Numbered from the stretch's first letter, positions 5,411 to 58,283 are shown. The stretch is 64,000 nt of DNA from an uncultured Chlorobiaceae bacterium (GCA_964596065.1 CAZQSM010000004.1:6566-70565), one strand, 5' to 3'. Numbers and translations are program-made. The notes: a model not told the origin generated them from the sequence alone.

Positions 5411-7741
5411 TTATCGTATAACAGCGAAGGTCCCGATCTGGGTTCCGAAATCCGATTCGACGGAAAACACGTAGACACCGGAGGCGATGACCCGTCCGCT
5501 TTCGCTCAGCATGTCCCACTCCTCCTGGCCGCGGGGCCTCCCCGGTTCCGTGCGGCCGCCGTCGTCGTGGCGGATGGTGGCGACGATGTCGCCGGTGAGG
5601 CTGAAGATACGGATCACCGCGACGGGCGGGAGGTGGATGAACCAGATCGTGCGTTTCCATTCGTTCCAGTCGATCGACCGTCCCTCCCACCCACCCGACT
5701 CGAAGGTGTAATTGCCGTCCACCCTGTAGGGGTTCGGCACCACGATCGTTTTTCCCGCCGATGACGACGGCGCGAACGGCAGCTGCACGAGCGTCGCGTT
5801 CCGGCCGATCGCCGATTCGAGGGGTTCGGTGTAGAGCGTGTCGGTCCTGAACGAACCGGGGTTGTCGGGGAGCGGGATGACGTTCACGGTCACACCCGGG
5901 ATGCCGAACGACGTGACGGCGTACCAGTATTTTTTCCCGTGAAGGAGGTTCGAATCGGTGAATGAATACTCGAGCCCGGTCCCGAACTCGAACCCGAGGT
6001 CGTCGTCGACGTCGTACTGCCTGAGGAGGCTGAACGACGCCGGATCGAATTCCGGCGACTCGCTCCGCCAGAGGCGGAACCCCTCGAAGATCCTGCCGCC
6101 GCTCACGCGGCCGGCCGGGGGGTCGGCCCGCCGCCAGTGCGTGTCGGGCAGCGACGAGAGAAAGGCGCTGGAGTCGTCCCAGGCGGAGAGGGGATCGGGA
6201 TCGGCCGCTCCCGGGCGCCAGCTCCAGTCGAGCCGGACGAGGACCGGCCCCTCCCCGACGGCGAGCGGCGGGGAGGGGGGAACGACCGGCAGCCTGTAGC
6301 CCGACGCGTAGAGCGAGTAGGCGGCGCGCGCGTTCGCCATCAGCGAGTTCGGTCCGATCTCGATACCGTCGCCCGAAATCAGCGCCACGGCGACGGTAAG
6401 CGAGTCGCCGGGGGCCACCGTTTCAAACGGCCCGAACGCCAGGAGGAATTGTGAGTCGGAACCCGGGGTCTGGGGTTCGTCGGGTTTGATCCTGCCGCTG
6501 GACATCAGCCGGTAGTGTTCGTCATCGGTCCCGGGGTTGTCTTCGAACCTGTTCCAGTTGAACGTGTACCGGAGCAGGTTGAGCGGCTTCGGGGTCCCGA
6601 GCACGACGACCCCGACCGGCGTGGCCCCGCGGTCATAGACATTGTGGGCGTACCCCGTCCTGAGCTCCGGGATGTAGGCGGAATATTTTCTCGTCGCGAT
6701 GTCGGGCAGGTTCACGTTTCCCAGGAGCGGATCGACGAAAAAGCCGATGTAGAGGCTGTCGAGGGTCTTCGTCCCGGCGTTCACGATGACGTACTCCAGC
6801 GGGAGGATCGGTTGCCGGAACAGGTTCTGCCAGGCGTACGATTTCTGCACCACCCGGAGGCCGAGCGGGACATGGCCCGGTACGAGGGGGTCCGTGAAGA
6901 CGTCCGAGTACACCATCGTCACGTCGCGTTCCGAGACGGCCCCGAAATCCTCGTCCACCCCCGGTTCCCCCGCGTCGCCGAACCCGTTCAGTTCGGTGTA
7001 CCGGTACACGTCGTTCTGCCGGGGATAGACGCCGGCCGCGTCGGGTCGGCAGACGTCGCGCATCGCGGGCGAGTAGTTGTCGTGGGCCGGGTCGGGGTTC
7101 CGGGCCGCGTCAAATCCGCCGCCGCACCCCACCTCGAGCGAATCGGGGACGCCGTCGGAACCGACGTCGTGCAGGTCGGGCCGCCAGTCGCCGTCGTTGT
7201 CGCGGCCGTCAGGCTGGTCTTCATCGATCCGGCCGTCGCCGTCGTCGTCGAATCCGGCCAGGTTCGGCTGGCCCTGCTGGAGCACTCCCGTAACGAAGAA
7301 GGTGTCCCTCGGGGTCTGGTACCCGTAGAGTTCGTGCTGGACCCCCGTTTCACCCCAGTTGTACGCCTTCGTGACTGCGTGGATCTTCGCCGGGGCCGAC
7401 GGCGTCCCGGTGTCGACGATCGCCCCGATCCAGATGCCCGCGCCGTAGAGGTGCTCGACGCGCGAACCGATCGGGTACTCCATCCCGATCCCGTCGGGAG
7501 GGAGAAAATTATCGAAGGCCCCCTGCCCGATGGTTCCGTTGGCCCCGATCCAGGCCTTCAGGTGGAACCCCTGGCTGATCTGCAGGTCCCCCACCGCCCC
7601 CGTCCCCGAGGGGAGCGGCGCGACGGCGTGGCGGCCGCCACCCCCGCCCGGCGACGACCGGGCGGGAGCGACCGATGCGACGATCCAGAGGATGAGCGCC
7701 GCCGAGACGGCACGAGGGTCACAACCTGCCGCCGTCATCAT
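5411..7741 (-). CDS. secreted Asp-rich calcium-binding-repeat protein with T9SS-type C-terminal sorting domain
   Basis: N-terminal signal peptide. Thrombospondin-type-3-like runs (DDDGDGRIDEDQPDGRDNDGDWRPD). C-terminal ~90 aa (NPYRV...VIRIFSLTGDIVATI...GVYVFSVES...FAVIR) resemble a Por/T9SS CTD beta-sandwich. Confidence 0.5.
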   Translation of the reverse strand: MMTAAGCDPRAVSAALILWIVASVAPARSSPGGGGGRHAVAPLPSGTGAVGDLQISQGFHLKAWIGANGTIGQGAFDNFLPPDGIGMEYPIGSRVEHLYGAGIWIGAIVDTGTPSAPAKIHAVTKAYNWGETGVQHELYGYQTPRDTFFVTGVLQQGQPNLAGFDDDGDGRIDEDQPDGRDNDGDWRPDLHDVGSDGVPDSLEVGCGGGFDAARNPDPAHDNYSPAMRDVCRPDAAGVYPRQNDVYRYTELNGFGDAGEPGVDEDFGAVSERDVTMVYSDVFTDPLVPGHVPLGLRVVQKSYAWQNLFRQPILPLEYVIVNAGTKTLDSLYIGFFVDPLLGNVNLPDIATRKYSAYIPELRTGYAHNVYDRGATPVGVVVLGTPKPLNLLRYTFNWNRFEDNPGTDDEHYRLMSSGRIKPDEPQTPGSDSQFLLAFGPFETVAPGDSLTVAVALISGDGIEIGPNSLMANARAAYSLYASGYRLPVVPPSPPLAVGEGPVLVRLDWSWRPGAADPDPLSAWDDSSAFLSSLPDTHWRRADPPAGRVSGGRIFEGFRLWRSESPEFDPASFSLLRQYDVDDDLGFEFGTGLEYSFTDSNLLHGKKYWYAVTSFGIPGVTVNVIPLPDNPGSFRTDTLYTEPLESAIGRNATLVQLPFAPSSSAGKTIVVPNPYRVDGNYTFESGGWEGRSIDWNEWKRTIWFIHLPPVAVIRIFSLTGDIVATIRHDDGGRTEPGRPRGQEEWDMLSESGRVIASGVYVFSVESDFGTQIGTFAVIR

Positions 7742-8507
7742 CCTCGTCGGCGGTGGAATCGTCGTCCCCCTCCCCCTCGTCCCCCATCGATTTCATCATC
7801 TCCTCGAACATCTTCTCGAAGTTCAGGTCCACCACCTGTTTCTCGTATCCCGCGGGCGCTTCGAAGGTCGAGACGGGCACCGTTGTTTTCTCGACGGCGG
7901 TCACCTCCTCCGTCTCCGTCACCTCCCCGTCGGTGGAGCGGACCACGACGAGCGGAAAGAGTTTTTTATCGGCAAGTTCACGTTCCCACCGGGTCCCGTC
8001 GGTCGCCGACTCCATGCTCATCCCGTCGAACCACTTCACGATCCCCTCATACATGTTCCCGAGCCCGGCAGTGGCCCAGATCGACGCCGTTTCACCGCCT
8101 CCTTCATCGGCGGTCCACTCCTCGCATCGATACCCGATGATCGTGCGGCTTTTCCCGGTTTTGGCGAGAGTGTACGACTTCGATCCGGCGCCCCGCGTCC
8201 CGGAATCGGGCGAGCGGCCCCCGTCGGCGAGCGGGATCTCCATGTATTTCTTTTCCTGATCGACGACGATCCACATGACGTTCTTGTCGCCGCGCAGGAT
8301 GAATTTCCCGCCGCTCCCCTCCGACATGTCGGACGAGTCGATGACCGCGGCGAAGAGCTGGCCCTTGAAATAGACCGACGACGAGACGACGGACGAATCA
8401 GCGTCGCCGAAGGTGACGGCGCGCATCCGGACGACGCCTTCGAACTGGGCCTGCGCCGCTCCCGCCTGGATGACGATAGCGGCGGCGATCGAGAGTAACG
8501 TTTTCAT
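7719..8507 (-). CDS. DUF4412-like secreted protein with acidic C-terminal tail
   Basis: Signal peptide MKTLLSIAAAIVIQAGAAQA. GYRCEEW and FEAPAGYEK motifs typical of DUF4412. C-terminal D/E-rich tail. Confidence 0.5.
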   Translation of the reverse strand: MKTLLSIAAAIVIQAGAAQAQFEGVVRMRAVTFGDADSSVVSSSVYFKGQLFAAVIDSSDMSEGSGGKFILRGDKNVMWIVVDQEKKYMEIPLADGGRSPDSGTRGAGSKSYTLAKTGKSRTIIGYRCEEWTADEGGGETASIWATAGLGNMYEGIVKWFDGMSMESATDGTRWERELADKKLFPLVVVRSTDGEVTETEEVTAVEKTTVPVSTFEAPAGYEKQVVDLNFEKMFEEMMKSMGDEGEGDDDSTADEDDDGGRL

Positions 8508-8537
8508 GATTGCTCCCTGGTGATTGTCTGGTGGGGT

Positions 8538-8768
8538 TTATTTTGCCGCCGGCGGCGGCAGCGACTTCGCCCTGACCTCGGAACTGAACGCGCCGTTTTT
8601 ATGCGACGAATCGCAGAACGGCTTGTCCCTGCTCAGGCCGCAGCGGCAGAGGCTGATGGCGGTCCGGCCCGCCAGGTCGAAACGGCCACCCTCGCCGTCG
8701 TAGAGTTCGAAATCCCCTTCGATCCGGAGGCTTCCGTTGGGGCGGACCGTGATCTTGACTGGTGGCAT
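8538..8768 (-). CDS. small CDGSH-type iron-sulfur domain protein
   Basis: Internal ATG start MPPVKITVRPNGSLRIEGDFELYDGEGG. Motif CRCGLSRDKPFCDSSH (C-x-C-x8-C-D-S-S-H) is a variant of the CDGSH [2Fe-2S] motif. 76 aa. The longer track ORF start upstream looks spurious. Confidence 0.6.
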   Translation of the reverse strand: MPPVKITVRPNGSLRIEGDFELYDGEGGRFDLAGRTAISLCRCGLSRDKPFCDSSHKNGAFSSEVRAKSLPPPAAK

Positions 8769-8782
8769 CGGTGATCCTTTCG

Positions 8783-10888
8783 TTATTTGATCAGAAGCGT
8801 CTTGATGAAATCCCGCCGCCCGTCGACCGTAACGCGGCAGTAGTAGACGCCGCTCGGCAGACCGGTCGGACTCCAGGGGATGCGGTGGAATCCGGGGCCG
8901 CGCTGTTCCCCGCCGATGCGGCCGACGCGGCTGCCGTGCACGTCGAAGAACTCGACCCCGACCCATCCCGGGGATGAGAGTTCCACGCCGATGACCGTCG
9001 TCGCGTTGAACGGATTGGGGAAATTCCGCGTGAGGCGGAACTCCCCAGGGTGGCGGCGCGCTTCCTCCACTCCGGTTCCGCCGTCGTTCCTGTAATAGAC
9101 CAGGCCGCCCTTCGATGTGCCGACGAGCAGGTCGTCGTCACCGTCGCCGTCGAGGTCGGTGAACGCGATCGCCGGTTCGTACGGCATTCCGGGCCCGAAC
9201 CGGTCGTTGTCCAGGGCATAGGGCGTGTCGCCCCCGCTCCCGGTATTGCTGTAGGCCACGATGAGGCTCCGGCCTCCGGGGGCCGTGTCGCCGGCCGCCG
9301 GGGCGACATACAGGTCCGCCCGGCCCGTCGCGGCGTTCCACCGGAACGCCGGCCTCGCGTTGCTCCCGAAGTCCCTCCCCAGGAAGGTTTCGCTGACGAG
9401 ATCCGGCACGAACGTCGAGGCGTCGCCCGAATTCCTGTAGAAGCTCAGCGTGCCGTTTCCCTTCCCGACGACCAGGTCGGGATCGCCGTCCCCGTCCACG
9501 TCGGCCGCGGCGGGGACGGCGTACTGGCCCGTGACGATCGTGTCGACCGGCTGGAAACCGCCCGGGCCCGCGTTCCGGTAGACGATCACCCTCCCGTCGA
9601 ACCTCCCGAGGAGCAGGTCCGGGTCTCCGTCGTCGTCGAGGTCGGCGAAGGCGGGGGCGTACGAGTAATTCCCCGTGATGCCCGCGAAGGCGGTGTCGAC
9701 GAGGTGGAACAGCGGCGAGAGCGGGCTCCCCTCGTTCCTGAAATGCCAGAGCTGTCCGTCGTTGTTGCCGATGACGAGGTCGAGGTCGAGGTCCCCGTCG
9801 AGATCGGCCAGCGCGGGCGCGGCATTCTGCCCGACGTCGAGCGTGGCGGCGAAGTCCCGGGTGACGAGCGTGTAGGCGGGCGCGCCGGGGGTTCCGTTGT
9901 TCTCATAATGCCAGAAGGAGTTCCGGGTCCTGGAGTTCAACACGCCGACGAACAGGTCCGGGTCTCCATCGGCGTCGATGTCGGCGAAGGAGGCCTGATT
10001 GAATCCGACGGTCGACAGCGAGCCGTCCGGCGGGAACACGTTGGACGCGCACTCCAGCGCGGGGTCCTGGGCGGTCCCGGCATTCCGGAGGTGGAAGAGG
10101 CTGTGTGAAAAGAGGTCGCCGTACACAAGGTCGGTGGTGCCGTTGCCGTCCAGGTCGCTCAGCGCGACCGCGCCGAGCCCGTGCGCCGGGTTCTTGTCCG
10201 CGGCCGGCAGCCCCGCGCCACCCTGCGTGCAGGTGTCGCCCGTGATGGTGATGTCGCTGAGCCGCGTCGAGACCAGGGCGTACGCCGGGACGCCCGCGAT
10301 GCCGGTGTTACGGTAATAGTTGAACGACCCGTCGGCGGAGTTGCCCGAGAGAAAATCGGGAAGCCCGTCGCCGGTCATGTCGGCGATACCGGGCAGACCA
10401 CCGAAACCGGCGAACAGCGGAGCGCCGGACGTGTCGCGAAGATCGTTCAACCGCACCGACCAGGAGGGATCGGCCGGAGTCGCGTCGTTCCTCCAGACGC
10501 GGACACCGCTCGACCCGTCGTCGGTGAGGAGGTCGACGATGCCGTCGGCGTCGAAATCGACGAATCGGAACCAGTAACTGAATGCCGCCCCGCGGAAACC
10601 CCCCTCCGGCTCGAGTGAGAACACGGGGGCGCCGGCGTCGCCGACGTTCCGGAAATAATACCGTTCGGCGTAAAAATCGGAATCGAGGATGAAGAGGTCG
10701 AGGTCGCCGTCGCCGTCGAGGTCCGCGAACTGCTGCATCGGGGCGTTCAATCCGCCGGAGAGGGGTTCACGGTAGGGGACCTGGTCGCGGAAAAAGGCGA
10801 TTCCCGCGAGGTCCCGGACGAAATTCTGCCCCGCGGCCGGGCCGGCGAACGGGAACAGGGCGAGCCCCGCGACCAGGGCGTTACGCAT
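8783..10888 (-). CDS. FG-GAP/VCBS-repeat (integrin-alpha-like beta-propeller) protein with T9SS C-terminal sorting domain
   Basis: Signal peptide. At least 9 repeats of the D-x-D/N-G-D-G-x-x-D-L Ca-binding FG-GAP signature. C-terminus LTRNFPNPFNATTVIGVEL...SGVYYCRVTVDGRRDFIKTLLIK matches the Por_Secre_tail consensus. Confidence 0.7.
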   Translation of the reverse strand: MRNALVAGLALFPFAGPAAGQNFVRDLAGIAFFRDQVPYREPLSGGLNAPMQQFADLDGDGDLDLFILDSDFYAERYYFRNVGDAGAPVFSLEPEGGFRGAAFSYWFRFVDFDADGIVDLLTDDGSSGVRVWRNDATPADPSWSVRLNDLRDTSGAPLFAGFGGLPGIADMTGDGLPDFLSGNSADGSFNYYRNTGIAGVPAYALVSTRLSDITITGDTCTQGGAGLPAADKNPAHGLGAVALSDLDGNGTTDLVYGDLFSHSLFHLRNAGTAQDPALECASNVFPPDGSLSTVGFNQASFADIDADGDPDLFVGVLNSRTRNSFWHYENNGTPGAPAYTLVTRDFAATLDVGQNAAPALADLDGDLDLDLVIGNNDGQLWHFRNEGSPLSPLFHLVDTAFAGITGNYSYAPAFADLDDDGDPDLLLGRFDGRVIVYRNAGPGGFQPVDTIVTGQYAVPAAADVDGDGDPDLVVGKGNGTLSFYRNSGDASTFVPDLVSETFLGRDFGSNARPAFRWNAATGRADLYVAPAAGDTAPGGRSLIVAYSNTGSGGDTPYALDNDRFGPGMPYEPAIAFTDLDGDGDDDLLVGTSKGGLVYYRNDGGTGVEEARRHPGEFRLTRNFPNPFNATTVIGVELSSPGWVGVEFFDVHGSRVGRIGGEQRGPGFHRIPWSPTGLPSGVYYCRVTVDGRRDFIKTLLIK

Positions 10889-12086
10889 GGAGCGCGTCGG
10901 ATCGTTCCACCGGTTCCGCGTGGCGATGGTGAAATCGTTCGATCGTCACGGCCGAGAGCGCCATCCGCGTGAGCTCCCGGAGGTCGAGCTTCGCCTCCTC
11001 GCCGAGGACCTGCGCGGGGTCCGCCCAGGTTCGGGGGCTCCGGGGTGCCAGGAACGAGCAGCAATCGTCGTACGGCTGGCTCGAAAAGTCGTGCGTGCCG
11101 ATCCGGCGCGACGTCGCGATCGTCTCCTCCTTGTCGGCGCCGGACAACGGTCGCAGGACCGCGATGGTCGCCGCCGCGTCGATCACGCGGATGTTTCTGA
11201 GCGTCTGGGACGCCACCTGCCCGACCGCCTCCCCGGTGACGAGGCCCTCGGCTTTTTCCCGGCCGGCGATCCTCTCGGCGATCCGGAGCATCATCCTCCG
11301 GTACAGGATGATCCGGAGCGAGGGTTCCGTCCTGAGCACGATCTCGTTCTGCACGGGGGCGAACGGGACAAGATAGAGTTTCGACCGGTACTGGTACGGT
11401 GTGAGCACCCTGACAACGTCCCGGACGAGCCCGACGGATTGTTCGCCGGTGTAGGGCATGCTGTGGAAATGGACGAACACGACGTTGCATCCCCTCTTCA
11501 TCATCTGCCAGCACGCGACCGGGGAGTCGAAGCCGGCAGAAAGCAGGCCGACCACCCGCCCGCTCACCCCGGCCGGCAGCCCGCCGGCCCCGGGGAGCCT
11601 CCGGGAATAGACATAGGCGGTCCCGTCGGCGATTTCGACCGACACCGTCACGTCGGGATCCGAGAGGTCGGCGCGGACGCCGTACGTGCCGCACAGGCGG
11701 GCCCCGATGCGCGCGTTGGTCTCCATCGACGTGAGCGGAAACCGCTTGTCGACGCGCCGGGTGTCGACGCGGAGGGTTGCGAACTTCAGGCCGGCGAGGG
11801 ACGCCTCCGAAGCCTCGCAGAGCGCCCCGACATCCTGCGCGACGCGAACGCCGGGGCAGATGTTCGCCAGTCCGAACACCCGCCCGAGCTCGCCGGCCAG
11901 CAGTCCGGCGTCCGCCGCGGATCCGGGGGTCAGTATGAATTTTCCATACCCTCCGCTGACGGAGCATTTCACGCCGGCCGCCGCGGCCGTCGCGCGGACG
12001 TTCCGCATGAGCGTCTGTTCGAAGTATTTCCGGTTTCCACCCTTGAGGACGATCTCGTGGTGGTGGAGAACGATGACGGGGTGCAT
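10881..12086 (-). CDS. thiI: tRNA 4-thiouridine(8) synthase ThiI (short form, no rhodanese domain)
   Basis: THUMP-like N-terminal region plus PP-loop SAGFDSPVA. 401 aa. Confidence 0.8.
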   Translation of the reverse strand: MHPVIVLHHHEIVLKGGNRKYFEQTLMRNVRATAAAAGVKCSVSGGYGKFILTPGSAADAGLLAGELGRVFGLANICPGVRVAQDVGALCEASEASLAGLKFATLRVDTRRVDKRFPLTSMETNARIGARLCGTYGVRADLSDPDVTVSVEIADGTAYVYSRRLPGAGGLPAGVSGRVVGLLSAGFDSPVACWQMMKRGCNVVFVHFHSMPYTGEQSVGLVRDVVRVLTPYQYRSKLYLVPFAPVQNEIVLRTEPSLRIILYRRMMLRIAERIAGREKAEGLVTGEAVGQVASQTLRNIRVIDAAATIAVLRPLSGADKEETIATSRRIGTHDFSSQPYDDCCSFLAPRSPRTWADPAQVLGEEAKLDLRELTRMALSAVTIERFHHRHAEPVERSDALHA

Positions 12087-12173: not shown

Positions 12174-13478
12174 TCAATCCCCGGACGACCGCGACGCGCC
12201 GTGCGCGGTGAGCGCCCTCTGGAGGAGCGTCACGGGATGGATGACCTCCACCGCCGACCCCGCCTCGAGCAGGCCCCGTTGGATCTGGAGGTGGCATCCC
12301 GGGTTTCCCGTCACGACGGTCCCGGCCCCGCACCCGAGGATGTTCGCGATCTTCCGCCGGAGCAGTTCGTCGGCATCGTCGGGCCGGATGAGGTTGTAGA
12401 TGCCGGCGCTCCCGCAGCAGCGCGAGGCGTCGGGGAGTTCGACGAACCGCACGCCCGGGATCGTTTGGATAAGCGCCCGGGGTTGTTTCGACACGCCCTG
12501 GCCGTGGACCAGGTGGCACGCCTCGTGGTAGGTGACCGACGCCGCCACCGACCCGCCGGACGCACCGATTCCCCGGGCGTGGAGGAATTCCGACACGTCC
12601 GCGACCGTCGCCGAAAATCGGGCGGCCCGGTCCGCCATCGCCGGATCGTCCGCGAACAGGCGCCCGTACCCCTTCATGAAGGAGCCGCAGCCGGCGGCGT
12701 TCACGACGACCGCGTCCAACCCGTCAGGAAAGAGGCCGATCGTGTCCGCGGCGAGCTCTCGGGCCCGGGTGTCATCGCCGTTGTGGCCGTGGAGTGAACC
12801 GCAGCAGAATTGCCCCCGCGGAACGACCACGTCGAACCCGGAGCGCCTCAGGAGGTCCGCGGTACCGGAGTGGACCGAGGGGAACGTCTCATTCATCACG
12901 CAGCCCGTGAAGAGCCCCGTCCGGCCGGCCGGCGCGCCGCGGCCCCGCAGGAGGTCGGGCACCGCGGAAAGGTAGGAGCGGTCGGCGACGTCGGGGAGCG
13001 ACAGGACGATCCGGCGGATGGCGTCCGGGAAGACGTTCAGGATTCCGGAGCGTTCAACCGCCTCCCTCAGCCCCGACCGGCGGTAGCCCCGCATCAACCG
13101 GGCGAAGAGCCCGAAGCCGGCCGCAGACCCGAAAATGACCCGGAGGAGGACAAATTTCCTGAACCGGAGAGTGAACGGTTCGAGCTTCCGGTCGCGGACG
13201 ATGCCGCGCGCCATCTCCACGATTTCTCCGTACCGGACCCCCGCCGGGCAGGCTGGCTCGCACGCCCGGCAGTCGAGGCAGAAATTCATCTCGTCGGCGA
13301 ACGCCCGTCCCGGCACCAGCGAACCATCGAGCACCGACCGCACGAGGCGGATCCTCCCGCGGGGGGACGAGGCCTCGTCGAGCGTCATCTCGTAGGTGGG
13401 GCACGAGGGGAGGCAGAGACCGCAGTGGAGGCAGGTGTTGAGCACGGCGTCGATATGTTCCCGGCCCGGTCCCCTCAC
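12174..13478 (-). CDS. glcF: glycolate oxidase iron-sulfur subunit GlcF-like (Fe-S)-binding protein
   Basis: Two 4Fe-4S ferredoxin motifs (CLHCGLCLPSCP, CLDCRACEPACP). Two CCG cysteine-rich domains (QFCCGS, RCCGSAG). Confidence 0.75.
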   Translation of the reverse strand: MRGPGREHIDAVLNTCLHCGLCLPSCPTYEMTLDEASSPRGRIRLVRSVLDGSLVPGRAFADEMNFCLDCRACEPACPAGVRYGEIVEMARGIVRDRKLEPFTLRFRKFVLLRVIFGSAAGFGLFARLMRGYRRSGLREAVERSGILNVFPDAIRRIVLSLPDVADRSYLSAVPDLLRGRGAPAGRTGLFTGCVMNETFPSVHSGTADLLRRSGFDVVVPRGQFCCGSLHGHNGDDTRARELAADTIGLFPDGLDAVVVNAAGCGSFMKGYGRLFADDPAMADRAARFSATVADVSEFLHARGIGASGGSVAASVTYHEACHLVHGQGVSKQPRALIQTIPGVRFVELPDASRCCGSAGIYNLIRPDDADELLRRKIANILGCGAGTVVTGNPGCHLQIQRGLLEAGSAVEVIHPVTLLQRALTAHGASRSSGD

Positions 13479-13479
13479 C

Positions 13480-14148
13480 TCAGGCGCGCCTCCCGAGCAG
13501 CGGCAGAAGCGCGGCCCCCGCGACGAAGCCCCCGATATGGGCCCACCACGCGACCCCTCCGGCGTCGGCCCCGATCTGCAGCGCGAGGAGCCCGCTCCCG
13601 ATCTGCATCAGGAACCAGAGCCCGAGAAAGACGAACGCGGGGAGTTCGATCAGCTGGAAAAAGACGAAGATCGGGATGAGCGTCAGTACCCTCGCGCGCG
13701 GGAAGAGGATGACGTAGGCCCCCAGCACCCCGGCGATGGCGCCGCTCGCCCCCACCATCGGGACGACCGAGGTCGGTTCGATGTACACCTGCGTCGCCGC
13801 GGCCGCGGCGCCCGTCATCAGGTAGAACAGGACGAATCGGCCGTGCCCGAACCGGTCCTCGATGTTGTCCCCGAAGACGTAGAGAAAGACCATGTTGCCC
13901 AGGAGGTGCATCCATCCCCCGTGGAGAAACATCGAGGTGAAGAACGAGAGGTAGGCGACCGGGTCGTCCGCGTAGGTGTCCAGCGCTTCGCTCACGCGAG
14001 AGGGAACCACGCCCAGCGACGCGAAGAGCCGTCCGAGATCCTCCCCGAGCGAAAGTTCGAAGAGAAAGACCGCGGCGTTCAGGCCGATCAGCGCATAGAC
14101 GACGTACGGGACCGAACGGGACGGGTTGGTGTCTCTCAGGGGGATCAT
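13480..14148 (-). CDS. rhomboid family intramembrane serine protease
   Basis: Six predicted TM segments. Catalytic GASGAIAG serine motif and His in AHIGGF. 222 aa. Confidence 0.75.
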   Translation of the reverse strand: MIPLRDTNPSRSVPYVVYALIGLNAAVFLFELSLGEDLGRLFASLGVVPSRVSEALDTYADDPVAYLSFFTSMFLHGGWMHLLGNMVFLYVFGDNIEDRFGHGRFVLFYLMTGAAAAATQVYIEPTSVVPMVGASGAIAGVLGAYVILFPRARVLTLIPIFVFFQLIELPAFVFLGLWFLMQIGSGLLALQIGADAGGVAWWAHIGGFVAGAALLPLLGRRA

Positions 14149-14157
14149 CGCGGGGGT

Positions 14158-14814
14158 TCAGCGGTCGAGGAGCGGGGCGAACCACGCCATCATGTCGCCG
14201 AGGCTCTCCTCGTTGATCTGATGCCCCATGTCGTATTCGCGGTAGGTGACGACTGCGCCGTGAGATTCCAGCAGCTCCTTCGCCCGCCTGCTGTAGGCGA
14301 ACGGGATCACGGGGTCGTAAATGCCGTGGGCGACGAAGAAGGGCTTCCCCTTCACTCCCTCCCACCGGAACGTGAGCCCGGCATCCTCGGGCACGTACCC
14401 GCTGTTCGCGATCACGCCGGCGAGCAGTTCCGGCCGGGTGAGCGCGACCGCGAGGGACATGATCGATCCCATGCTGAATCCCCCGCAGTAGAGCCTGCCC
14501 GGATCGATGCCATGGCGTTCGACCGCTTCGGCGATGAACGCCAGCAGCGTGTCGTAACTCGACCGGAACATCGCGGCGTCCGGCCTGCCGATCTCCTCCA
14601 GGTCGTACCAGGTGTACCCGCCCCCGTTCGCGAACGGGTGCGGCGCCCGGGGCGCGATGATAAGCAGCCGGTCGTCGAAGTACTCGGAGAGGCCGAGCAG
14701 GTCGTCTTCGTCGGCGCCCCGGCCGTGGAGGAGGATCAGCGCCGGCGGTTTGCCGGGGCCGCTCCTCCTGGGCTGGAGGAATTTATAGACAAGGGAACGT
14801 TGTTCGCGGCTCAC
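14158..14814 (-). CDS. alpha/beta hydrolase (phospholipase/carboxylesterase family)
   Basis: LILLHGRGADEDDL and GFSMGS nucleophile elbow. C-terminal His (MGHQI). Confidence 0.7.
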   Translation of the reverse strand: MSREQRSLVYKFLQPRRSGPGKPPALILLHGRGADEDDLLGLSEYFDDRLLIIAPRAPHPFANGGGYTWYDLEEIGRPDAAMFRSSYDTLLAFIAEAVERHGIDPGRLYCGGFSMGSIMSLAVALTRPELLAGVIANSGYVPEDAGLTFRWEGVKGKPFFVAHGIYDPVIPFAYSRRAKELLESHGAVVTYREYDMGHQINEESLGDMMAWFAPLLDR

Positions 14815-14818
14815 GGCG

Positions 14819-16273
14819 TCATACCCACGCCACGTCTTCGAATTTCCGTATCTGCTCGCGGGAGCTCGGCATCCGCCCCTCGCACCGCGGTTCGCAGTCG
14901 AGGATCTTCCCGGGGTTGAGGATGAGATTCGGGTCGAGCGCCTCCTTCAGCTTTCGCATCATCATCATCGAGGGGGACCCCACCATTTTTTCAAGCAACG
15001 GTTTCTTGAACAGGCCGACGCCGTGCTCGCCGGTGATCGTCCCGCCGAGGGCGATCGCCGCCTCCTCGACCTCCATCACCGTCCTGTGCGCCCTCCGGAA
15101 TTCCCCGGCGTCGCGTTCGTCGGTGAGGTAGTTCGGGTGGAGGTTCCCGTCACCGGCGTGGCCGAAGGTGCCGATCCTGATGTCGTTCCTCCGCCCGATC
15201 TCCCCGATCTTCCGTACAAGGGCGGCCAGCTCGGTCCGCGGGACGGCCACGTCTTCCATGATGGTGGTCGGCCTGACGCGGGCGAGCGAGGTGAACGCCG
15301 ATCGGCGCGCGACCTTCAACCTGTCGGATTCGGCGGCCCCCGAGGCCACCGTCACCGACGAGGCTCCGCACTCCGTGAAAATGGCCGCGATCCTGGCGCT
15401 GTCCCGCCCGACCACCTCCGGATGGCCGTCAGTCTCCGCGAGCAGGAGGGCGCCCGCGTCCGTGGGCAGGCCGAGGCGGGCGTATTCCTCGACGCAGCGG
15501 ATCGTGGTGTTGTCGAGGAATTCGAGCATCGCCGGGAGGATCCGGGCCGACACCACCGCGGAGACGGCGGCCGCCGCCGATTCCATCCGCGGAAACGCCG
15601 CCAGGAGTGTCCGTGAAGCTTCCGGTTTGGGGAGGATCCGGAGGAGGATTTTGGTGATGATGCCGAGCGTGCCCTCGGACCCGACGAGCACGTCCCGCAG
15701 ATTGTAGCCGGCCACGTCCTTCGCCGACTTCCCCCCCGTCCAGAGGATTTCGCCCGTCGGGAGGACCACTTCGAGCCCCATCACGTAGTTCTTCGTGACC
15801 CCGTATTTGAGCCCCCGGAGCCCCCCTGAGTTCTCGGCGACGTTCCCCCCGATGGTGGAGATCGCCGCGCTCCCGGGATCGGGCGGATAGAGGAAGCCGA
15901 GGGCATCGACCTCACGCTGCAGCTTCGCGGTGATCACGCCGGGTTCGACGGTGACGGTCTGGTTGTCGGCGTCGATTTCGAGGATCCGGTTCCGGTGGGC
16001 CATCAGGACGACGACCGAGCCTTTCACCGGCAGGGCCCCCCCGCTCAGTCCTGTCCCGGAGCCGCGGGGAACGAGCGGCGTCCCGGTCTCGTTGGCGAGC
16101 CTGACGATGGAGGAGATTTCGGCCGGCGAGTTCGGCCTGACGACGCAGAGCGGGAGCTGCGGAGGCAGGGCGGTCGCGTCGTACGAATGGGCGACGAGCG
16201 CCTCCGGCGAATCGAACACGTTGTCGTGCCCGACGATTTCTCCCAGGCGGCGTGCGATCGTGCGCGAGGTCAT
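14819..16273 (-). CDS. glcD: FAD-linked oxidase, glycolate oxidase subunit GlcD-like
   Basis: FAD_binding_4 N-terminus (VVRPNSPAEISSIVRLANETGTPLVPRGSGTGLSGG) and FAD-oxidase C-terminal domain. 484 aa. Confidence 0.8.
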   Translation of the reverse strand: MTSRTIARRLGEIVGHDNVFDSPEALVAHSYDATALPPQLPLCVVRPNSPAEISSIVRLANETGTPLVPRGSGTGLSGGALPVKGSVVVLMAHRNRILEIDADNQTVTVEPGVITAKLQREVDALGFLYPPDPGSAAISTIGGNVAENSGGLRGLKYGVTKNYVMGLEVVLPTGEILWTGGKSAKDVAGYNLRDVLVGSEGTLGIITKILLRILPKPEASRTLLAAFPRMESAAAAVSAVVSARILPAMLEFLDNTTIRCVEEYARLGLPTDAGALLLAETDGHPEVVGRDSARIAAIFTECGASSVTVASGAAESDRLKVARRSAFTSLARVRPTTIMEDVAVPRTELAALVRKIGEIGRRNDIRIGTFGHAGDGNLHPNYLTDERDAGEFRRAHRTVMEVEEAAIALGGTITGEHGVGLFKKPLLEKMVGSPSMMMMRKLKEALDPNLILNPGKILDCEPRCEGRMPSSREQIRKFEDVAWV

Positions 16274-16344: not shown

Positions 16345-17367
16345 TCAGGATCCCGGGAAGGAACGGCCGACGGCCCGGGCCACGACGGCCACTTCCCGCA
16401 CGAGCCTCCCGAACCGTTCGGGGTCGAGCGATTGTTCCCCGTCGGAGAACGACTCCGCAGGCCGCGGATGGACCTCGACCATCAGGCCGTCCGCGCCGGC
16501 GGCGACCGCGGCGCGGCTCATGGGGACGATGAGGTCGTGCCTGCCGGTGCCGTGGCTCGGATCGACGATGATCGGGAGGTGCGAAACACCCTTCACCGCC
16601 GGTACGATGTTGAGATCGAGCGTGTTCCGGGAATATTCGACGAACGTCCTGATTCCCCGTTCGCAGAGGACGACATTCGGGTTGCCGCCCGAAAGGATGT
16701 ATTCGGCGCTCATAAGGAATTCCGTCATGGTGGCCGAAAAATGTCGTTTCAGCAGGACCGGCTTCCGGATCCGCGAGAGGGCCCTCAGCAGGTTCGTGTT
16801 GTGCATGTTCCGGGCGCCCACCTGCAGCATGTCGGCGTAGTCGGCCACGATCGCCACGTCGCCCGATTCCATCACCTCGGTCACGACCGGGAGGCCGGTG
16901 CGTTCGCGGGCGGCCGCGAGGTGTTTCAGTCCGGCCTCGCCCAGGCCCTGGAACGCGTACGGGCTGGTCCGGGGTTTGTAGGCGCCCCCCCGCAGGAGCG
17001 TGGCGCCCGCCGCCTGCACCGCGGCGGCCGTCGAGACCACCTGTTCCTCCGACTCGACCGAGCAGGGGCCCGCGATGACGACGATGGCGGTGCCGCCGAT
17101 CGGGACACCGCGGACGTCCACGACCGTGTCCTCCGGTCTCAGTTCCCTGCTGGCGAGCTTGTACGGCTTCAGGATGGCGATGACGTTTTCCACCCCCGGC
17201 AGCAGCAGGAACGACTCCCGCCTCACCTTCCGTTCATCCCCGATGATGCCGACGATCGTGCGTTCCACACCCTTCGAGACGTGCGGGGTGAGCCCCGCCT
17301 CGCCGATCCTCCGGACCACCCCGGCGATCTGGCCTTCGGTGGCGGACGCCTTGAGAACGATGATCAT
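16345..17367 (-). CDS. aroG: 3-deoxy-7-phosphoheptulonate (DAHP) synthase, class I-beta with N-terminal regulatory domain
   Basis: KDSR/DAHP synthase core (GPCSVES, KPRTSPY, LLKRHF...IVDPSHG). Preceded by a ~75-aa ACT/ferredoxin-like regulatory domain. Confidence 0.8.
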   Translation of the reverse strand: MIIVLKASATEGQIAGVVRRIGEAGLTPHVSKGVERTIVGIIGDERKVRRESFLLLPGVENVIAILKPYKLASRELRPEDTVVDVRGVPIGGTAIVVIAGPCSVESEEQVVSTAAAVQAAGATLLRGGAYKPRTSPYAFQGLGEAGLKHLAAARERTGLPVVTEVMESGDVAIVADYADMLQVGARNMHNTNLLRALSRIRKPVLLKRHFSATMTEFLMSAEYILSGGNPNVVLCERGIRTFVEYSRNTLDLNIVPAVKGVSHLPIIVDPSHGTGRHDLIVPMSRAAVAAGADGLMVEVHPRPAESFSDGEQSLDPERFGRLVREVAVVARAVGRSFPGS

Positions 17368-17380: not shown

Positions 17381-17408
17381 AAAAGAAAACCCCGCCCCGG
17401 GAGGGCAG
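17381..17408 (-). terminator. possible intrinsic terminator downstream of 17455..18606
   Basis: On the minus strand, a short GC stem (ctcccggggcgggg) is followed by ttttctttt, 47 nt past the stop codon. Weak stem. Confidence 0.25.
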
Positions 17409-17454
17409 GGTGGAGACGTGCCGATGGGGCGCGGGCGCGTGTTCCGCAGCGGGT

Positions 17455-18712: not shown

Positions 18713-19744
18713 TCAGGCGGGATATGATCCCCCCTGCGACGGGCGAGCCGCGTCGGGGGACGCGGACGCCTCCGCGACACCCGAGGGATGTTCGTGGTGG
18801 CCGTGGAGACAGTTCCGGCAGGTCGACCGCGAATCGAGGAAGGTCGTCGAGTGTTGCCAGATGTCGCGGAAATCGTACCCGGTATCGCGCAGGGTGGCGC
18901 GTTCCCCGCCGCTGCCGCCGCAGGGCCGGACCCGGCCCTCCTCGTCGATGAACGCAAACGACTTGCCGCCGAGGCAGGAATAGTCCCAGGATCCCCCGGA
19001 GTGCGCCGTCCGGCCATACCTGGAGCTGTTCGGGATGAATTTGACGCACTGGGGGGAGATGATCATCGAAGAGGGGCTGTACTCCTTCATCGTGGCGAAC
19101 CGCCCGATGAACTCGTCCACGCCGCGCCCGTTGCGCGCCCCGGCGGGGCCGCCCTGGCCGAAGCGCAGGTGGCAGTAGAGTCCGCGCACGGACCGCCGGA
19201 CAGCGTAATCGTGGAGAATCGCCAGCATCCTGATGTCGGGACGGGTGGCGGTGAAGACCACGTGCGACTCGTAACCATGCGACCCGAGACGGTCGAGCGC
19301 CGCTTCAAGCGCCGCGAACTGCGGAGCGTCTTCCAGGCGCCCGCCCTCCAGCCCGTCGGCCGGGTCACCGATCTTCACCCTGAAGATCCGCTCCCCGAAC
19401 CGGGAATATTTGACCACGATCTCCTCGGTGAGTTCCTCCGGTGCGGCCTCCACGATCATTTTGAGGCCGAGCGCCCGGCCGTAATCGAGGATCTCCATGA
19501 GCCGCGGATAGCGGTGCAGGACCCCGTCCCCCGTCAGTACGACGATCGGCTTCGCGGTCCTGGCGATCGAGTCGATCACCAGCATGCACTCGGTCGTGTT
19601 GAGCGGCTCGGCCCTCTGACCGGCGCGTTTCCCTCTCGGGGGTTCGTGGTCCAGGGGGGCGATCTGCCAGATGATGATGCGGGGAAGTTCCGGGGCCGCC
19701 GCGGTGGGACGTTTCATGCCGGCGGGGGGTGACGGATAGTCCAT
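18713..19744 (-). CDS. radical-SAM-fold / SPASM-domain homolog lacking the CxxxCxxC cluster motif
   Basis: The middle region aligns with the radical SAM core (IVVLTGDGVLHRYPRLMEILDYGRALGLKMIVE resembles the GGEPLL...region of AnSME-type enzymes). C-terminal CVKF...CLGGKSFAFIDEEGRVRPCG...CRNCLHGHH is SPASM/twitch-like. No CxxxCxxC in this or any other frame. Strong GC3 bias supports real coding. Confidence 0.5.
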   Translation of the reverse strand: MDYPSPPAGMKRPTAAAPELPRIIIWQIAPLDHEPPRGKRAGQRAEPLNTTECMLVIDSIARTAKPIVVLTGDGVLHRYPRLMEILDYGRALGLKMIVEAAPEELTEEIVVKYSRFGERIFRVKIGDPADGLEGGRLEDAPQFAALEAALDRLGSHGYESHVVFTATRPDIRMLAILHDYAVRRSVRGLYCHLRFGQGGPAGARNGRGVDEFIGRFATMKEYSPSSMIISPQCVKFIPNSSRYGRTAHSGGSWDYSCLGGKSFAFIDEEGRVRPCGGSGGERATLRDTGYDFRDIWQHSTTFLDSRSTCRNCLHGHHEHPSGVAEASASPDAARPSQGGSYPA

Positions 19745-34337: not shown

Positions 34338-34766
34338 ATGACGGAAGAGACGGGCATGGGACGACAACCGGGGTCGCGAAACCGCCAGATGCTGGTGGTG
34401 GGAGACCGCGTCCTGATCATTCCAGACACCGACCGGGACAGGTCCGAGCACGGGCTCTACCTCCCGCCCGGCGTGAAGGAGAAGGAAAAGGTTCAGAGCG
34501 GCTATATCGTCAAGGTCGGCCCGGGGTACCCGGTCCCGAACCCGAACTACCTCGACCAGGAATCGTGGTCCGCGGCGCCCCGCGAACCGGTGAAGTACCT
34601 TCCGCTGCAGGCCGAGGAGGGCGATTACGCCATTTTCCTCAGAGACCAGGCGATCGAGATCGAATACGACGGGACAAAATACCTGATCGTGTCGCAGGCG
34701 GGGGTGTTGATGCTGATCAGGGCGAGGCCGATGGCGGACCTCGGCGGGGAAGAGCGGGAAGGCTAA
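34338..34766 (+). CDS. GroES (Cpn10)-like co-chaperonin fold protein, orphan
   Basis: LVVGDRVLIIPDTD...GLYLP...GYIVKVGPG...GDYAIFLRDQAIEIEYDGTKYLIVSQAGVLMLI aligns with GroES blocks, with a ~25-aa insertion. No groEL nearby. Confidence 0.5.
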   Translation: MTEETGMGRQPGSRNRQMLVVGDRVLIIPDTDRDRSEHGLYLPPGVKEKEKVQSGYIVKVGPGYPVPNPNYLDQESWSAAPREPVKYLPLQAEEGDYAIFLRDQAIEIEYDGTKYLIVSQAGVLMLIRARPMADLGGEEREG

Positions 34767-35512
34767 CGGGCGCTGAAGCGTTCGAGGAACGCCACTTCCC
34801 CCGGCGAGAGACTCCCGGTCCCGCCGGTGTCGAGCTTCATCATGATCCTCCGGTACTCCTCCCTGTTGACCTCGTGCATCCCGTCGGTGGCGATCGCCCG
34901 CCACCGCTGCAGTGCCACGGGATCGACCACCGGACGCCCGGCTGCCGGCATCGTGACCCTGACCTCCCGCCCCGGCGCCGCCGACCGGATATAGAGATAC
35001 CCCCCCAGGAACCCTCCGAGATGGGCGAAATGCGCGATGCCGTCCCCGCCCCCGCCGGCGCCGCCGAACACCGAGAGGGCCGCCATTCCCGCGACCAGCC
35101 AGCGGGCCTCGACGGGCAGGATCCCCCAGATGTAGATCTGTGAGCGGGGCCAGAACCAGGTGAATCCGATCAGAACGCCGTACACCGCGGCCGACGCCCC
35201 GACGATCGCAGCGTCGAACGAAAAGAGGAACGAGAGCGCCGCGCCGGAGAGCCCGCTGACGAAGTAGAGCCAGAGGAAGCGCCGCTCACCCAGTTCCGCC
35301 TCGAGCCGAGGTCCGAAGAAATAGAGCCCCAGCATGTTGAACAGGATGTGCCCGAGTCCCGCGTGGAGGAACATGTAGGTGACTGCGGTCCAGGGCCGCA
35401 GAAGCGCGTAGGCGGGGACGAACATCAGCTCGCGGTCGATCCCGGGGACCATCGCCGTGACCAGGAACATCACCGCGTTCGCGGCGATGATCCGCATGAC
35501 CCAGGGCGTCAT
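34763..35512 (-). CDS. rhomboid family intramembrane serine protease (second copy)
   Basis: TM helices. GASAAVYG serine motif and FAHLGGFLGG His motif. 4-nt overlaps on both sides. Confidence 0.7.
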   Translation of the reverse strand: MTPWVMRIIAANAVMFLVTAMVPGIDRELMFVPAYALLRPWTAVTYMFLHAGLGHILFNMLGLYFFGPRLEAELGERRFLWLYFVSGLSGAALSFLFSFDAAIVGASAAVYGVLIGFTWFWPRSQIYIWGILPVEARWLVAGMAALSVFGGAGGGGDGIAHFAHLGGFLGGYLYIRSAAPGREVRVTMPAAGRPVVDPVALQRWRAIATDGMHEVNREEYRRIMMKLDTGGTGSLSPGEVAFLERFSAR

Positions 35513-50890: not shown

Positions 50891-50919
50891 TCGTCTCACG
50901 CTGACGCTCTCAACGTCCG

Positions 50920-51468: not shown

Positions 51469-51487
51469 GGGTATGCCGGTTATTCAG

Positions 51488-52477: not shown

Positions 52478-52525
52478 AGTTTCCTACTCCCAGGTTACGT
52501 TTCGAAAATGCGGTTCGTCGGGACT

Positions 52526-53155: not shown

Positions 53156-53188
53156 ACTGTCCTTTGGTTCGTAGAATGCGTTGCTGGT

Positions 53189-53602
53189 TCAGACTCTGCG
53201 TTTCTTCGGCGGTCTGCAGCCGTTGTGCGGGATCGGCGTGATGTCCCTGATGCTCAGGATCTCGATCCCGACGGACTGCAGCGAGCGGATGCCCGCTTCC
53301 CTTCCCGATCCGGGACCCTTGACGAACACGTCCACCTTGCGGAGGCCGAGGTCGTGGGCTTCCTTGCCGGCCGCCTGCGCGGTCACCTGCGAGGCGAAGG
53401 GCGTGTTCTTCCTCGAGCCCTTGAAGCCGTTGCGCCCCGCCGACGACCAGCTGATGACGTTTCCGTAGACGTCGGTGATGGTGATGACGACGTTGTTGAA
53501 CGTCGCCTTGATGAACACCTTGCCGGTGACGTCCACCTGGATTTTTTTCTTCTTCCGCGCGCCCGCCGCTGCGGAACCCGCCCCTGCTGCTGCTTTGGCC
53601 AT
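53189..53602 (-). CDS. rpsK: 30S ribosomal protein S11
   Basis: Conserved S11 core after a basic N-terminal tail. Confidence 0.9.
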
Positions 53603-53638
53603 TGACTGTCCTTGTGTGTGTGGTATCTGCCCTGCCGG

Positions 53639-58282: not shown

Positions 58283-58283
58283 A

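What the first reader, a model, noticed from the sequence alone, without database searches (positions are those of the whole stretch)
12174..16273. Split glycolate-oxidase-like operon: glcD - esterase - rhomboid protease - glcF, with no glcE
Four minus-strand genes sit within 1-9 nt of each other (16273 to 12174). The FAD subunit GlcD and the CCG-domain Fe-S subunit GlcF are separated by an alpha/beta-hydrolase (GFSMG) and a rhomboid intramembrane protease. In canonical glcDEF the three subunits are contiguous, and no GlcE-like FAD-binding subunit is present here. That a membrane protease and an esterase sit inside a dehydrogenase operon suggests a membrane-associated two-subunit 2-hydroxyacid dehydrogenase (GlcD-GlcF type) functionally coupled to lipid or membrane-protein processing.
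Basis: partly seen in the sequence, partly recalled or inferred. Interest (0 to 1): 0.6.

Follow-up and report, generated by a model that had tools for sequence, protein, structure and literature searches.

The report
GlcD/GlcF dehydrogenase operon with embedded rhomboid
An uncultured Ignavibacteria-type bacterium has an esterase gene and a membrane-protease (rhomboid) gene sitting between the two genes of an ordinary two-subunit lactate/glycolate-type dehydrogenase; the rhomboid's position is conserved in many relatives, but nothing shows that it takes part in the enzyme's work.

Summary
Four minus-strand genes lie 4, 9 and 1 nt apart: GlcD-like FAD oxidase 14819-16273, Abhydrolase_2 esterase 14158-14814, rhomboid 13480-14148 and GlcF-like Fe-S/CCG protein 12174-13478. 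No GlcE-like gene occurs in the 64 kb window.

I compared 80 species-level genomes carrying a GlcF relative.
- None has a GlcE-like gene within 8 kb, and glcD-glcF directly adjacent is the commonest layout (34 species). A GlcE-less, two-gene enzyme is therefore normal for this family.
- A rhomboid orthologue touches glcF in 34 of 80 species, in three orders (D-R-F, D-F-R, D-E-R-F), usually overlapping glcF. This persists where all other neighbours differ, so the linkage exceeds background synteny.
- The esterase occurs only in the window's own clade, where unrelated neighbours (DAHP synthase, ThiI, CDGSH) are equally conserved.

The modules also separate. D-F, D-E-F and esterase-rhomboid without glcD/glcF all exist, and 79 of 80 equally similar rhomboids elsewhere are unlinked. 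GlcD, GlcF and the esterase have no transmembrane helix that could serve as a rhomboid substrate.

Verdict: this is a conserved operon variant and a modest lead on bacterial rhomboid biology. Coupling to lipid or membrane-protein processing is not demonstrated.

The parts
14819..16273 (-). glcD-like FAD-linked 2-hydroxyacid dehydrogenase subunit (484 aa)
   Evidence: Pfam PF01565 + PF02913. TIGR00387 glcD scores 497 bits, below its cut-off of 568. Best solved relatives are 9qgz 'glycolate oxidase' (E 1e-98), LctD 7qh2 and mammalian LDHD.
14158..14814 (-). Abhydrolase_2 carboxylesterase/lysophospholipase-type hydrolase (218 aa), no signal peptide evident in the N-terminal sequence
   Evidence: PF02230, 89.5 bits. 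Aligns over its full length with P. fluorescens carboxylesterase 1AUO. The triad Ser114/Asp167/His198 is conserved.
13480..14148 (-). Rhomboid-family intramembrane serine protease (222 aa), catalytic residues intact
   Evidence: PF01694, 124.6 bits. GASG Ser135, His204, and His76/His81/Asn85 are invariant in 22 glcF-linked orthologues. It does not reach the GlpG or rhombosortase equivalog cut-offs.
12174..13478 (-). glcF-like Fe-S subunit (434 aa): 2x[4Fe-4S] ferredoxin motifs plus 2 CCG domains
   Evidence: CX2CX2CX3CP motifs at residues 16-27 and 67-78. CCG cysteines at C193/C225-226/C264 and C321/C354-355/C395. NF008434 GlcF scores 242 bits, below its cut-off of 333. The only solved relatives are HdrB.
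16345..17367 (-). DAHP synthase, upstream neighbour 71 nt away; context only, possibly the first gene of the same transcription unit
   Evidence: NF006421, 493 bits. Conserved upstream of glcD only in the window's own clade.
17389..17411 (-). Terminator-like GC-rich hairpin plus T-run between the T9SS-tail protein gene and the DAHP synthase gene
   Evidence: 10-bp stem with 7 GC pairs, followed by TTTCTTTTCC. This is a consensus match only. The total number of terminator-like sites in the region is no higher than in shuffled sequence.
10881..12086 (-). ThiI (tRNA 4-thiouridine synthase), downstream neighbour 87 nt away; context only
   Evidence: TIGR00342, 336 bits. No terminator-like site was detected between glcF and thiI. 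Conserved downstream only in the window's clade.

Best explanation
The locus encodes a two-subunit, GlcE-less GlcD/GlcF-type dehydrogenase.

Proposed enzyme mechanism:
- GlcD oxidises a D-2-hydroxyacid at its FAD. D-lactate or glycolate are the likeliest substrates, but specificity cannot be read from sequence.
- Electrons pass through GlcF's two [4Fe-4S] clusters and its CCG-domain clusters to the membrane quinone pool. This step is inferred from the family.

Proposed history of the gene order:
- In this family the two genes are normally adjacent.
- In the Ignavibacteria/Kryptonia part of Bacteroidota, a housekeeping-type, catalytically intact rhomboid gene became embedded in the pair. It lies before or after glcF and usually overlaps it.
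- In the window's own clade an Abhydrolase_2 esterase gene was added upstream of the rhomboid.

The four genes are most likely co-transcribed, perhaps together with DAHP synthase upstream. The rhomboid is probably translationally coupled to glcF, so it is co-expressed with the dehydrogenase. It is not a required part of the enzyme. The esterase's presence is explained by lineage synteny alone.

Shown: gene identities, absence of GlcE at the locus, the conservation patterns, and the separability of the modules. Inferred: substrate, electron acceptor, co-transcription, and the lack of direct biochemical interplay.
For: - Domain content and catalytic motifs of all four proteins.
- No GlcE-like ORF in the window or within about 8 kb of glcF in any of 88 loci.
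- Architectures in 80 species-representative genomes:
  - 34 with glcD-glcF directly adjacent, at most 220 nt apart.
  - 5 D-F with some other insert.
  - 14 D-R-F, plus 1 truncated R-F.
  - 8 D-F-R.
  - 7 D-E-R-F, plus 4 truncated E-R-F.
  - 3 D-E-F.
  - 4 with glcF only.
- The rho and glcF ORFs overlap or lie at most 15 nt apart in 23 of 25 rho-then-glcF species loci; 12 have a 4-nt overlap.
- Background-synteny control: DAHPS, ThiI, CDGSH and DUF4412 neighbours are conserved only in the D-E-(R)-F clade. The rhomboid stays attached to glcDF in the D-R-F and D-F-R clades, where those neighbours are gone.
- The architecture classes form coherent clades in both the GlcF tree and the rhomboid tree.
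- Evidence that the modules separate:
  - 79 of 80 metagenome contigs with equally similar rhomboids (45-59% identity) lack glcD/glcF, and their neighbours are diverse.
  - Locus L173 keeps TyrRS-T9SS-DAHPS-PAS kinase-esterase-rhomboid but has no glcD or glcF.
  - Only 3 of 42 rhomboid-less glcDF loci have any adjacent polytopic membrane protein.
- Two-gene glcDF/lutDF operons are already annotated in Bacillus and Desulfosporosinus (PMC12542772, PMC6372793).
Against: - The persistence of the rhomboid-glcF adjacency argues for some selective link, which this explanation leaves at the level of co-expression. The adjacency is found in three permutations, in several genomic backgrounds, down to about 42-45% GlcF identity, and often with overlapping ORFs.
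- Only 64 kb of the genome is visible, so a glcE elsewhere cannot be excluded.
- No transcript data exist. The promoter scan is uninformative for Bacteroidota-type promoters.
- The trees are neighbour-joining trees without support values.
Confidence: 0.55

Rival explanations
1. The rhomboid is a dedicated partner of GlcDF. It could dock the otherwise anchor-less GlcF at the membrane. Alternatively it could act in quality control or regulated proteolysis of a membrane client tied to this respiratory dehydrogenase, as Shigella GlpG and Rhom7 do for orphan subunits of respiratory complexes.
For: - Rhomboid-glcDF adjacency in 34 of 80 species, in three gene orders and beyond background synteny.
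- Frequent ORF overlap with glcF, suggesting translational coupling.
- Strict conservation of the catalytic residues.
- A precedent for rhomboids acting on respiratory-complex subunits (PMC7232013).
- Two Verrucomicrobiota carry an unrelated 4-TM protein at the same position, between glcD and glcF.
Against: - About half of the related species have glcDF with no rhomboid within 8 kb.
- Three species within the D-E-R-F clade lack the rhomboid at the locus.
- Equally similar rhomboids are unlinked in 79 of 80 other contigs.
- L173 keeps the rhomboid without glcDF.
- GlcD, GlcF and the esterase have no TM helix (maximum KD19 1.6), and linked and unlinked GlcFs do not differ (medians 1.22 vs 1.11).
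- Rhomboid-less loci rarely encode another membrane partner (3 of 42).
Confidence: 0.25
2. The esterase and the rhomboid form their own functional pair in membrane or lipid/protein processing (for example a thioesterase/lysophospholipase plus an intramembrane protease). On this view they merely sit inside the glcDF operon. This is the first reader's 'lipid or membrane-protein processing' idea without the link to the dehydrogenase.
For: - Esterase and rhomboid are adjacent in every D-E-R-F locus, and in L173 where glcD/glcF are absent.
- The esterase belongs to the carboxylesterase/APT1/lysophospholipase family.
- In three D-R-F genomes a different alpha/beta hydrolase (DLH family) lies between glcD and the rhomboid, directly upstream of it in two.
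Against: - The esterase occurs only in the clade where unrelated flanking genes are equally conserved.
- Three genomes have D-E-F without the rhomboid, and 22 have the rhomboid without the esterase.
- In L029 and L172 the esterase instead follows a two-domain glyoxalase-type dioxygenase, resembling a dioxygenase/esterase detoxification pair.
- The DLH proteins carry signal peptides, whereas the esterase does not appear to.
Confidence: 0.12
3. The enzyme is a canonical trimeric GlcDEF glycolate oxidase whose glcE gene lies elsewhere in the genome.
For: - Only 64 kb of the genome is visible.
- From general knowledge (not tested here), cyanobacteria scatter their glcD, glcE and glcF genes.
Against: - No GlcE-like ORF within about 8 kb of glcF in any of 80 species from four phyla, nor in the window.
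- The tight two-gene glcD-glcF unit is the dominant layout.
- GlcD and GlcF both score below the NCBIfam equivalog cut-offs for E. coli-type GlcD and GlcF.
- Two-gene glcDF operons exist in Firmicutes.
Confidence: 0.1

Closest known systems
E. coli GlcDEF glycolate oxidase/dehydrogenase (glcDEFGBA operon)
   Same: GlcD has the same FAD_binding_4 + FAD-oxidase_C architecture. GlcF has the same 2x[4Fe-4S] + 2xCCG architecture. Full-length alignment to the NCBIfam GlcD and GlcF models.
   Different: No GlcE in the locus or the window. Scores fall below the equivalog cut-offs: 497 vs 568, 350 vs 897 and 242 vs 333. The two genes are separated by two unrelated genes.
Two-gene glcDF / lutDF operons of Firmicutes (Bacillus subtilis glcDF 'probable glycolate oxidase'; Desulfosporosinus lutDF/glcDF)
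   Same: A GlcD-type flavoprotein plus a GlcF-type Fe-S protein without GlcE. Substrate (glycolate, D-lactate or L-lactate) cannot be inferred from sequence (PMC6372793, PMC12542772).
   Different: In those operons the two genes are adjacent. Here, and in 34 of 80 relatives, a rhomboid is embedded or appended, and in one clade an esterase as well.
E. coli glpEGR operon (rhomboid GlpG encoded within the glycerol-3-phosphate regulon) and Shigella GlpG/Rhom7 quality control of orphan respiratory-complex subunits
   Same: A bacterial rhomboid gene embedded among genes of a membrane-associated dehydrogenase system. Rhomboids are known to act on respiratory-complex components (PMC7232013). The glpEGR organisation is stated from general knowledge.
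   Different: This rhomboid is not a GlpG equivalog (20 vs 250 bits). It has only a 6-TM core with no N-terminal cytoplasmic domain. No TM-anchored candidate substrate is encoded in the cluster.
Pseudomonas fluorescens carboxylesterase II (PDB 1AUO) and the APT1/LYPLA1 acyl-protein thioesterase family
   Same: Same length (218 aa), same fold family (PF02230), and a conserved Ser-Asp-His triad.
   Different: Only distant sequence similarity (E 3e-24). The substrate is unknown. It does not reach the YpfH or MhqD equivalog cut-offs.

Membership tests
GlcDEF glycolate oxidase (E. coli type) | GlcD subunit reaching the curated equivalog score | tested here: not met
   TIGR00387 scores 497.1 bits vs a cut-off of 567.9. 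NF008408 scores 350.5 vs 897. The domain architecture itself is met.
GlcDEF glycolate oxidase (E. coli type) | A second FAD-binding subunit, GlcE, encoded with GlcD and GlcF | tested here: not met
   No second FAD_binding_4 ORF in the 64 kb window or in 88 related loci. The rest of the genome is not visible.
GlcDEF glycolate oxidase (E. coli type) | GlcF Fe-S subunit reaching the curated equivalog score | tested here: not met
   NF008434 scores 241.6 bits vs a cut-off of 333. The 2x[4Fe-4S] + 2xCCG cysteine pattern is present and invariant.
GlcDEF glycolate oxidase (E. coli type) | Glycolate or D-lactate oxidising activity | not testable with these tools
   Needs an enzyme assay.
Two-subunit GlcD/GlcF-type 2-hydroxyacid dehydrogenase (glcDF/lutDF-like) | A GlcD-type flavoprotein gene and a GlcF-type CCG Fe-S gene in one co-directional unit, without GlcE | tested here: met
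   Seen in 75 of the 80 species loci (four contigs show glcF only and one is cut before glcD).
Rhomboid intramembrane serine proteases (PF01694) | Rhomboid domain above the gathering score, with a GxSG serine, the TM6 histidine and the TM2 H/N residues | tested here: met
   124.6 bits vs 22.6. Ser135, His204, His76, His81 and Asn85 are invariant.
GlpG / rhombosortase subfamilies | Equivalog score | tested here: not met
   TIGR04239 scores 20 vs 250. TIGR03902 scores 25.8 vs 84.
Abhydrolase_2 phospholipase/carboxylesterase (PF02230) | Family score plus a Ser-Asp-His triad aligned to a solved member | tested here: met
   89.5 bits vs 23. Ser114/Asp167/His198 align with the GFSQG serine and the matching Asp and His of 1AUO.

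The most novel reading that the evidence does not exclude
In Ignavibacteria and Kryptonia the rhomboid may be a dedicated partner of the GlcD/GlcF dehydrogenase, acting as membrane docking site, assembly or quality-control factor, or proteolytic regulator. That would make this one of the very few bacterial rhomboids whose physiological client system can be predicted from conserved genomic context.
Probability: 0.2. Interest if true: 0.65.

Novelty: new variant of a known kind. Interest (0 to 1): 0.35.

Why it matters
The physiological roles and substrates of bacterial rhomboids remain largely unknown. A rhomboid gene that has stayed attached to, and often overlapping, a respiratory-type dehydrogenase operon gives a concrete, testable candidate context. 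The attachment spans two classes of Bacteroidota, three gene orders and several genomic backgrounds. The comparison also shows that GlcE-less, two-gene GlcD/GlcF enzymes are the norm across Ignavibacteriota, Calditrichota, Acidobacteriota and Verrucomicrobiota, which should temper 'glycolate oxidase' annotations. If the linkage is only co-expression, the locus is an ordinary operon variant.

Tried and rejected
1. **A second CCG/rhomboid pair as evidence of a general link.** The window holds a membrane Fe-S/CCG protein (35509-37527) and rhomboid-2 (34763-35512) with a 4-nt overlap. The pair is kept only in an 88%-identical relative (L169). It is absent in L170 (upstream gene unrelated) and in L171. 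I rejected it as coincidence.
2. **GlcF as a rhomboid substrate or TM-anchored protein.** Hydropathy shows no TM helix and no difference between rhomboid-linked and unlinked GlcFs. Rejected.
3. **A cis-encoded membrane partner as a general need of glcDF.** Only 3 of 42 rhomboid-less loci have one. Rejected.
4. **Looking up the window's own contig** through the 100%-identical esterase cluster P0241. The protein is not on record.
5. **Sigma-70 promoter scan.** It gave 3 weak hits, none at a useful position, and the consensus is not appropriate for Bacteroidota.
6. **Literature searches** for rhomboid with glcF or glycolate oxidase. No relevant paper turned up.
7. **Sequence search of solved structures for GlcF.** Only distant HdrB hits, so there is no structural model of a GlcD-GlcF complex.
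8. **Structure prediction and fold search.** Not used. All four proteins are confidently assigned by sequence, and single-chain models would not test the coupling.


Full report
**Observation**

The window is about 66% G+C. Its closest relatives are uncultured Ignavibacteria (Bacteroidota) MAGs. Four minus-strand ORFs sit exactly at the stated coordinates. Their junctions are TGA-cgcc-GTG, TGA-acccccgcg-ATG and TGA-g-GTG, giving gaps of 4, 9 and 1 nt.

Pfam and NCBIfam identify the four products.
- **14819-16273:** a GlcD-type flavoprotein with FAD_binding_4 and FAD-oxidase_C. TIGR00387 scores 497 bits, below its cut-off of 568.
- **14158-14814:** an Abhydrolase_2 esterase. It has GFSMG with Ser114, plus Asp167 and His198, and these align with the triad of P. 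fluorescens carboxylesterase 1AUO.
- **13480-14148:** a 222-aa rhomboid with GASG Ser135 and His204.
- **12174-13478:** a GlcF-type protein with two CX2CX2CX3CP motifs and two CCG domains. NF008434 scores 242 bits, below its cut-off of 333.

No second FAD_binding_4 (GlcE-like) gene exists in the 64 kb window.

One caveat applies. The four genes belong to a long co-directional array (TyrRS, DAHP synthase, glcD ... glcF, ThiI, FG-GAP, CDGSH, DUF4412), in which the unrelated ThiI and FG-GAP genes overlap by 8 nt. Tight spacing alone therefore says little.

**Is the gene order conserved?**

Yes. GlcF homologues at 66-72% identity (L001-L005) and at about 50% identity (L006-L008) keep glcD ... esterase-rhomboid-glcF.

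A scan of one genome per GTDB species with a GlcF alignment returned 80 loci at 41-69% identity. tblastn with the four window proteins classifies them as follows.

| Architecture | Species loci |
|---|---|
| glcD-glcF directly adjacent (≤220 nt) | 34 |
| D-F with another insert | 5 |
| D-R-F | 14, plus 1 truncated R-F |
| D-F-R | 8 |
| D-E-R-F | 7, plus 4 truncated E-R-F |
| D-E-F | 3 |
| glcF only | 4 |

The D-F class with other inserts carries either a DNA methylase or, in two Verrucomicrobiota, a 165-aa 4-TM protein. The D-F-R class includes Kryptonium, Thermokryptus and Chrysopegis.

None of the 88 loci has a GlcE-like ORF. The default state of this family is therefore a contiguous, GlcE-less glcDF pair. 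That pair is found in Ignavibacterium, Caldithrix, Acidobacteriota and Verrucomicrobiota. The window shows a derived state with two inserted genes.

**Is the linkage more than background synteny?**

I used the window's other neighbours as a control. DAHP synthase, ThiI, CDGSH and DUF4412 are conserved next to the cluster only in the D-E-(R)-F clade. They are absent from the D-R-F and D-F-R loci, which have different conserved flanks of their own.

The two inserted genes behave differently against this control.
- **Rhomboid.** It remains attached to glcDF in all of these backgrounds and in two different positions. In 23 of 25 rho-then-glcF loci the two ORFs overlap or lie at most 15 nt apart, and 12 show a 4-nt overlap (start codons were chosen heuristically). 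The rhomboid's linkage therefore exceeds background synteny.
- **Esterase.** It is confined to the clade where everything else is also conserved. At least 25 of 43 esterase homologues on contigs of 5 kb or more lie on a contig whose length equals that of a top-120 GlcF hit's contig, i.e. probably the same contig. Its linkage therefore does not exceed background.

The space between glcD and the rhomboid is an insertion hot spot. It holds an N6/N4 DNA methylase in 9 loci (8 of them between glcD and glcF). It also holds a secreted DLH hydrolase, a PAS kinase, a two-domain glyoxalase-type dioxygenase, or NrfHA.

The architecture classes form coherent clades in neighbour-joining trees of both GlcF and the rhomboid. 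This is consistent with long vertical co-inheritance plus several gains or losses. These trees carry no support values.

**Evidence against obligatory functional coupling**

- A reciprocal scan of metagenome contigs with an alignment of glcF-linked rhomboids returned 80 rhomboids at 45-59% identity to the window protein. That is the same range as between the linked classes. Only one (L089) is next to glcD/glcF, and the others have diverse, non-recurrent neighbours. The rhomboid is therefore a widespread housekeeping type.
- About half of the related species have glcDF without it. Three genomes inside the D-E-R-F clade lack it at the locus.
- L173 retains TyrRS-T9SS-DAHPS-PAS kinase-esterase-rhomboid but has no glcD or glcF within 7 kb.
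- GlcD, GlcF and the esterase have no TM-grade hydrophobic segment (maximum KD19 1.6). Rhomboid-linked and unlinked GlcFs do not differ (medians 1.22 vs 1.11). No cluster-encoded rhomboid substrate is apparent.
- Only 3 of 42 rhomboid-less glcDF loci encode any adjacent polytopic membrane protein. This argues against a general need for a cis-encoded anchor.
- The window's second CCG-protein/rhomboid pair (34763-37527) looked like a striking parallel. It is conserved only in an 88%-identical relative.

**Most likely mechanism**

- GlcD oxidises a D-2-hydroxyacid at FAD. Its best solved relatives are a 'glycolate oxidase' (9qgz), LctD and LDHD.
- GlcF relays electrons through two cubane clusters and its HdrB-like CCG clusters to quinone (family inference).
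- The enzyme works as a GlcD/GlcF heteromer without GlcE, like the glcDF/lutDF operons annotated in Firmicutes, whose substrate specificity is likewise unresolved.
- A terminator-like hairpin lies upstream of DAHP synthase (17411-17389) and none was detected before ThiI. The transcription unit may therefore be larger than four genes. This is unproven.
- The rhomboid is predicted to be active (catalytic residues invariant) and co-expressed with glcF.

I give about 0.55 to 'co-expressed but not mechanistically part of the enzyme'. I give about 0.25 to a genuine rhomboid-GlcDF partnership. The precedent for that is rhomboid quality control of orphan respiratory subunits (PMC7232013). I give about 0.12 to an independent esterase-rhomboid pair and about 0.1 to a hidden GlcE.

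**Comparison with the known, and novelty**

All four proteins are members of known families. Membership of the E. coli-type GlcDEF is not met: there is no GlcE, and the scores fall below the equivalog cut-offs.

Two-gene glcDF is known. Rhomboid genes inside metabolic operons are also known (glpEGR in E. coli, from general knowledge), without an established functional link.

I found no paper describing a rhomboid-glcDF association. The conserved, permuted rhomboid-glcDF linkage in Ignavibacteria and Kryptonia is a new variant of a known kind. It is a modest but testable lead for bacterial rhomboid biology.

Noticed in passing
window 34763-37527 (-): A second Fe-S/CCG protein (672 aa, N-terminal polytopic membrane domain, 35509-37527) overlaps by 4 nt a second rhomboid-family gene (249 aa, 34763-35512, with a C-terminal extension). 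The pair is conserved only in an 88%-identical relative (L169), not in L170 or L171, so it is probably coincidental.
   Followed up: yes
L173:3022-8335: A related genome keeps TyrRS-T9SS protein-DAHP synthase-PAS kinase-esterase-rhomboid but has no glcD or glcF within 7 kb. The esterase-rhomboid pair can therefore exist without the dehydrogenase.
   Followed up: partly
L172:5930-7651; L029:5487-7193 (same genome as L006): A two-domain glyoxalase-type (ring-cleaving-like) dioxygenase sits directly upstream of the esterase, between glcD and the esterase. It resembles dioxygenase/carboxylesterase detoxification pairs such as B. subtilis mhq genes. The esterase hits MhqD only weakly (48 vs 325 bits).
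   Followed up: no
L072:6568-7065; L074:4793-5284: In two Verrucomicrobiota an unrelated ~165-aa protein with about four hydrophobic helices and no Pfam match lies between glcD and glcF, at the same position as the rhomboid.
   Followed up: partly
L021, L026, L032, L046, L049, L050, L052, L087 (between glcD and rho/glcF): An orphan N6/N4 DNA methylase gene (~390-430 aa; degraded to 94 aa in L087) recurs at the same spot, between glcD and the rhomboid (or glcF). The cluster has members in nine loci, eight of them at this spot. L026, L049 and L080 also carry a signal-peptide DLH (dienelactone hydrolase) gene there.
   Followed up: partly
window 50900-64000 (-): Strongly negative AT skew (-0.2 to -0.3) and slightly lower G+C here coincide with the ribosomal-protein/secY/map/rpoA/rplQ cluster on the minus strand, which is ordinary.
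   Followed up: partly
window 18713-19744 (-): A 343-aa ORF with no Pfam match and only weak NCBIfam similarity to radical-SAM heme/heme-d1 maturases (AhbD 57 bits vs cut-off 500). It is conserved in the closest relative, L009.
   Followed up: no
window 7719-12086 (-): ThiI, a T9SS-tailed FG-GAP repeat protein (overlapping ThiI by 8 nt), a 76-aa CDGSH iron-sulfur protein and a DUF4412 protein form a string. The string is conserved together with the cluster across the whole D-E-(R)-F clade, despite no obvious shared function.
   Followed up: partly
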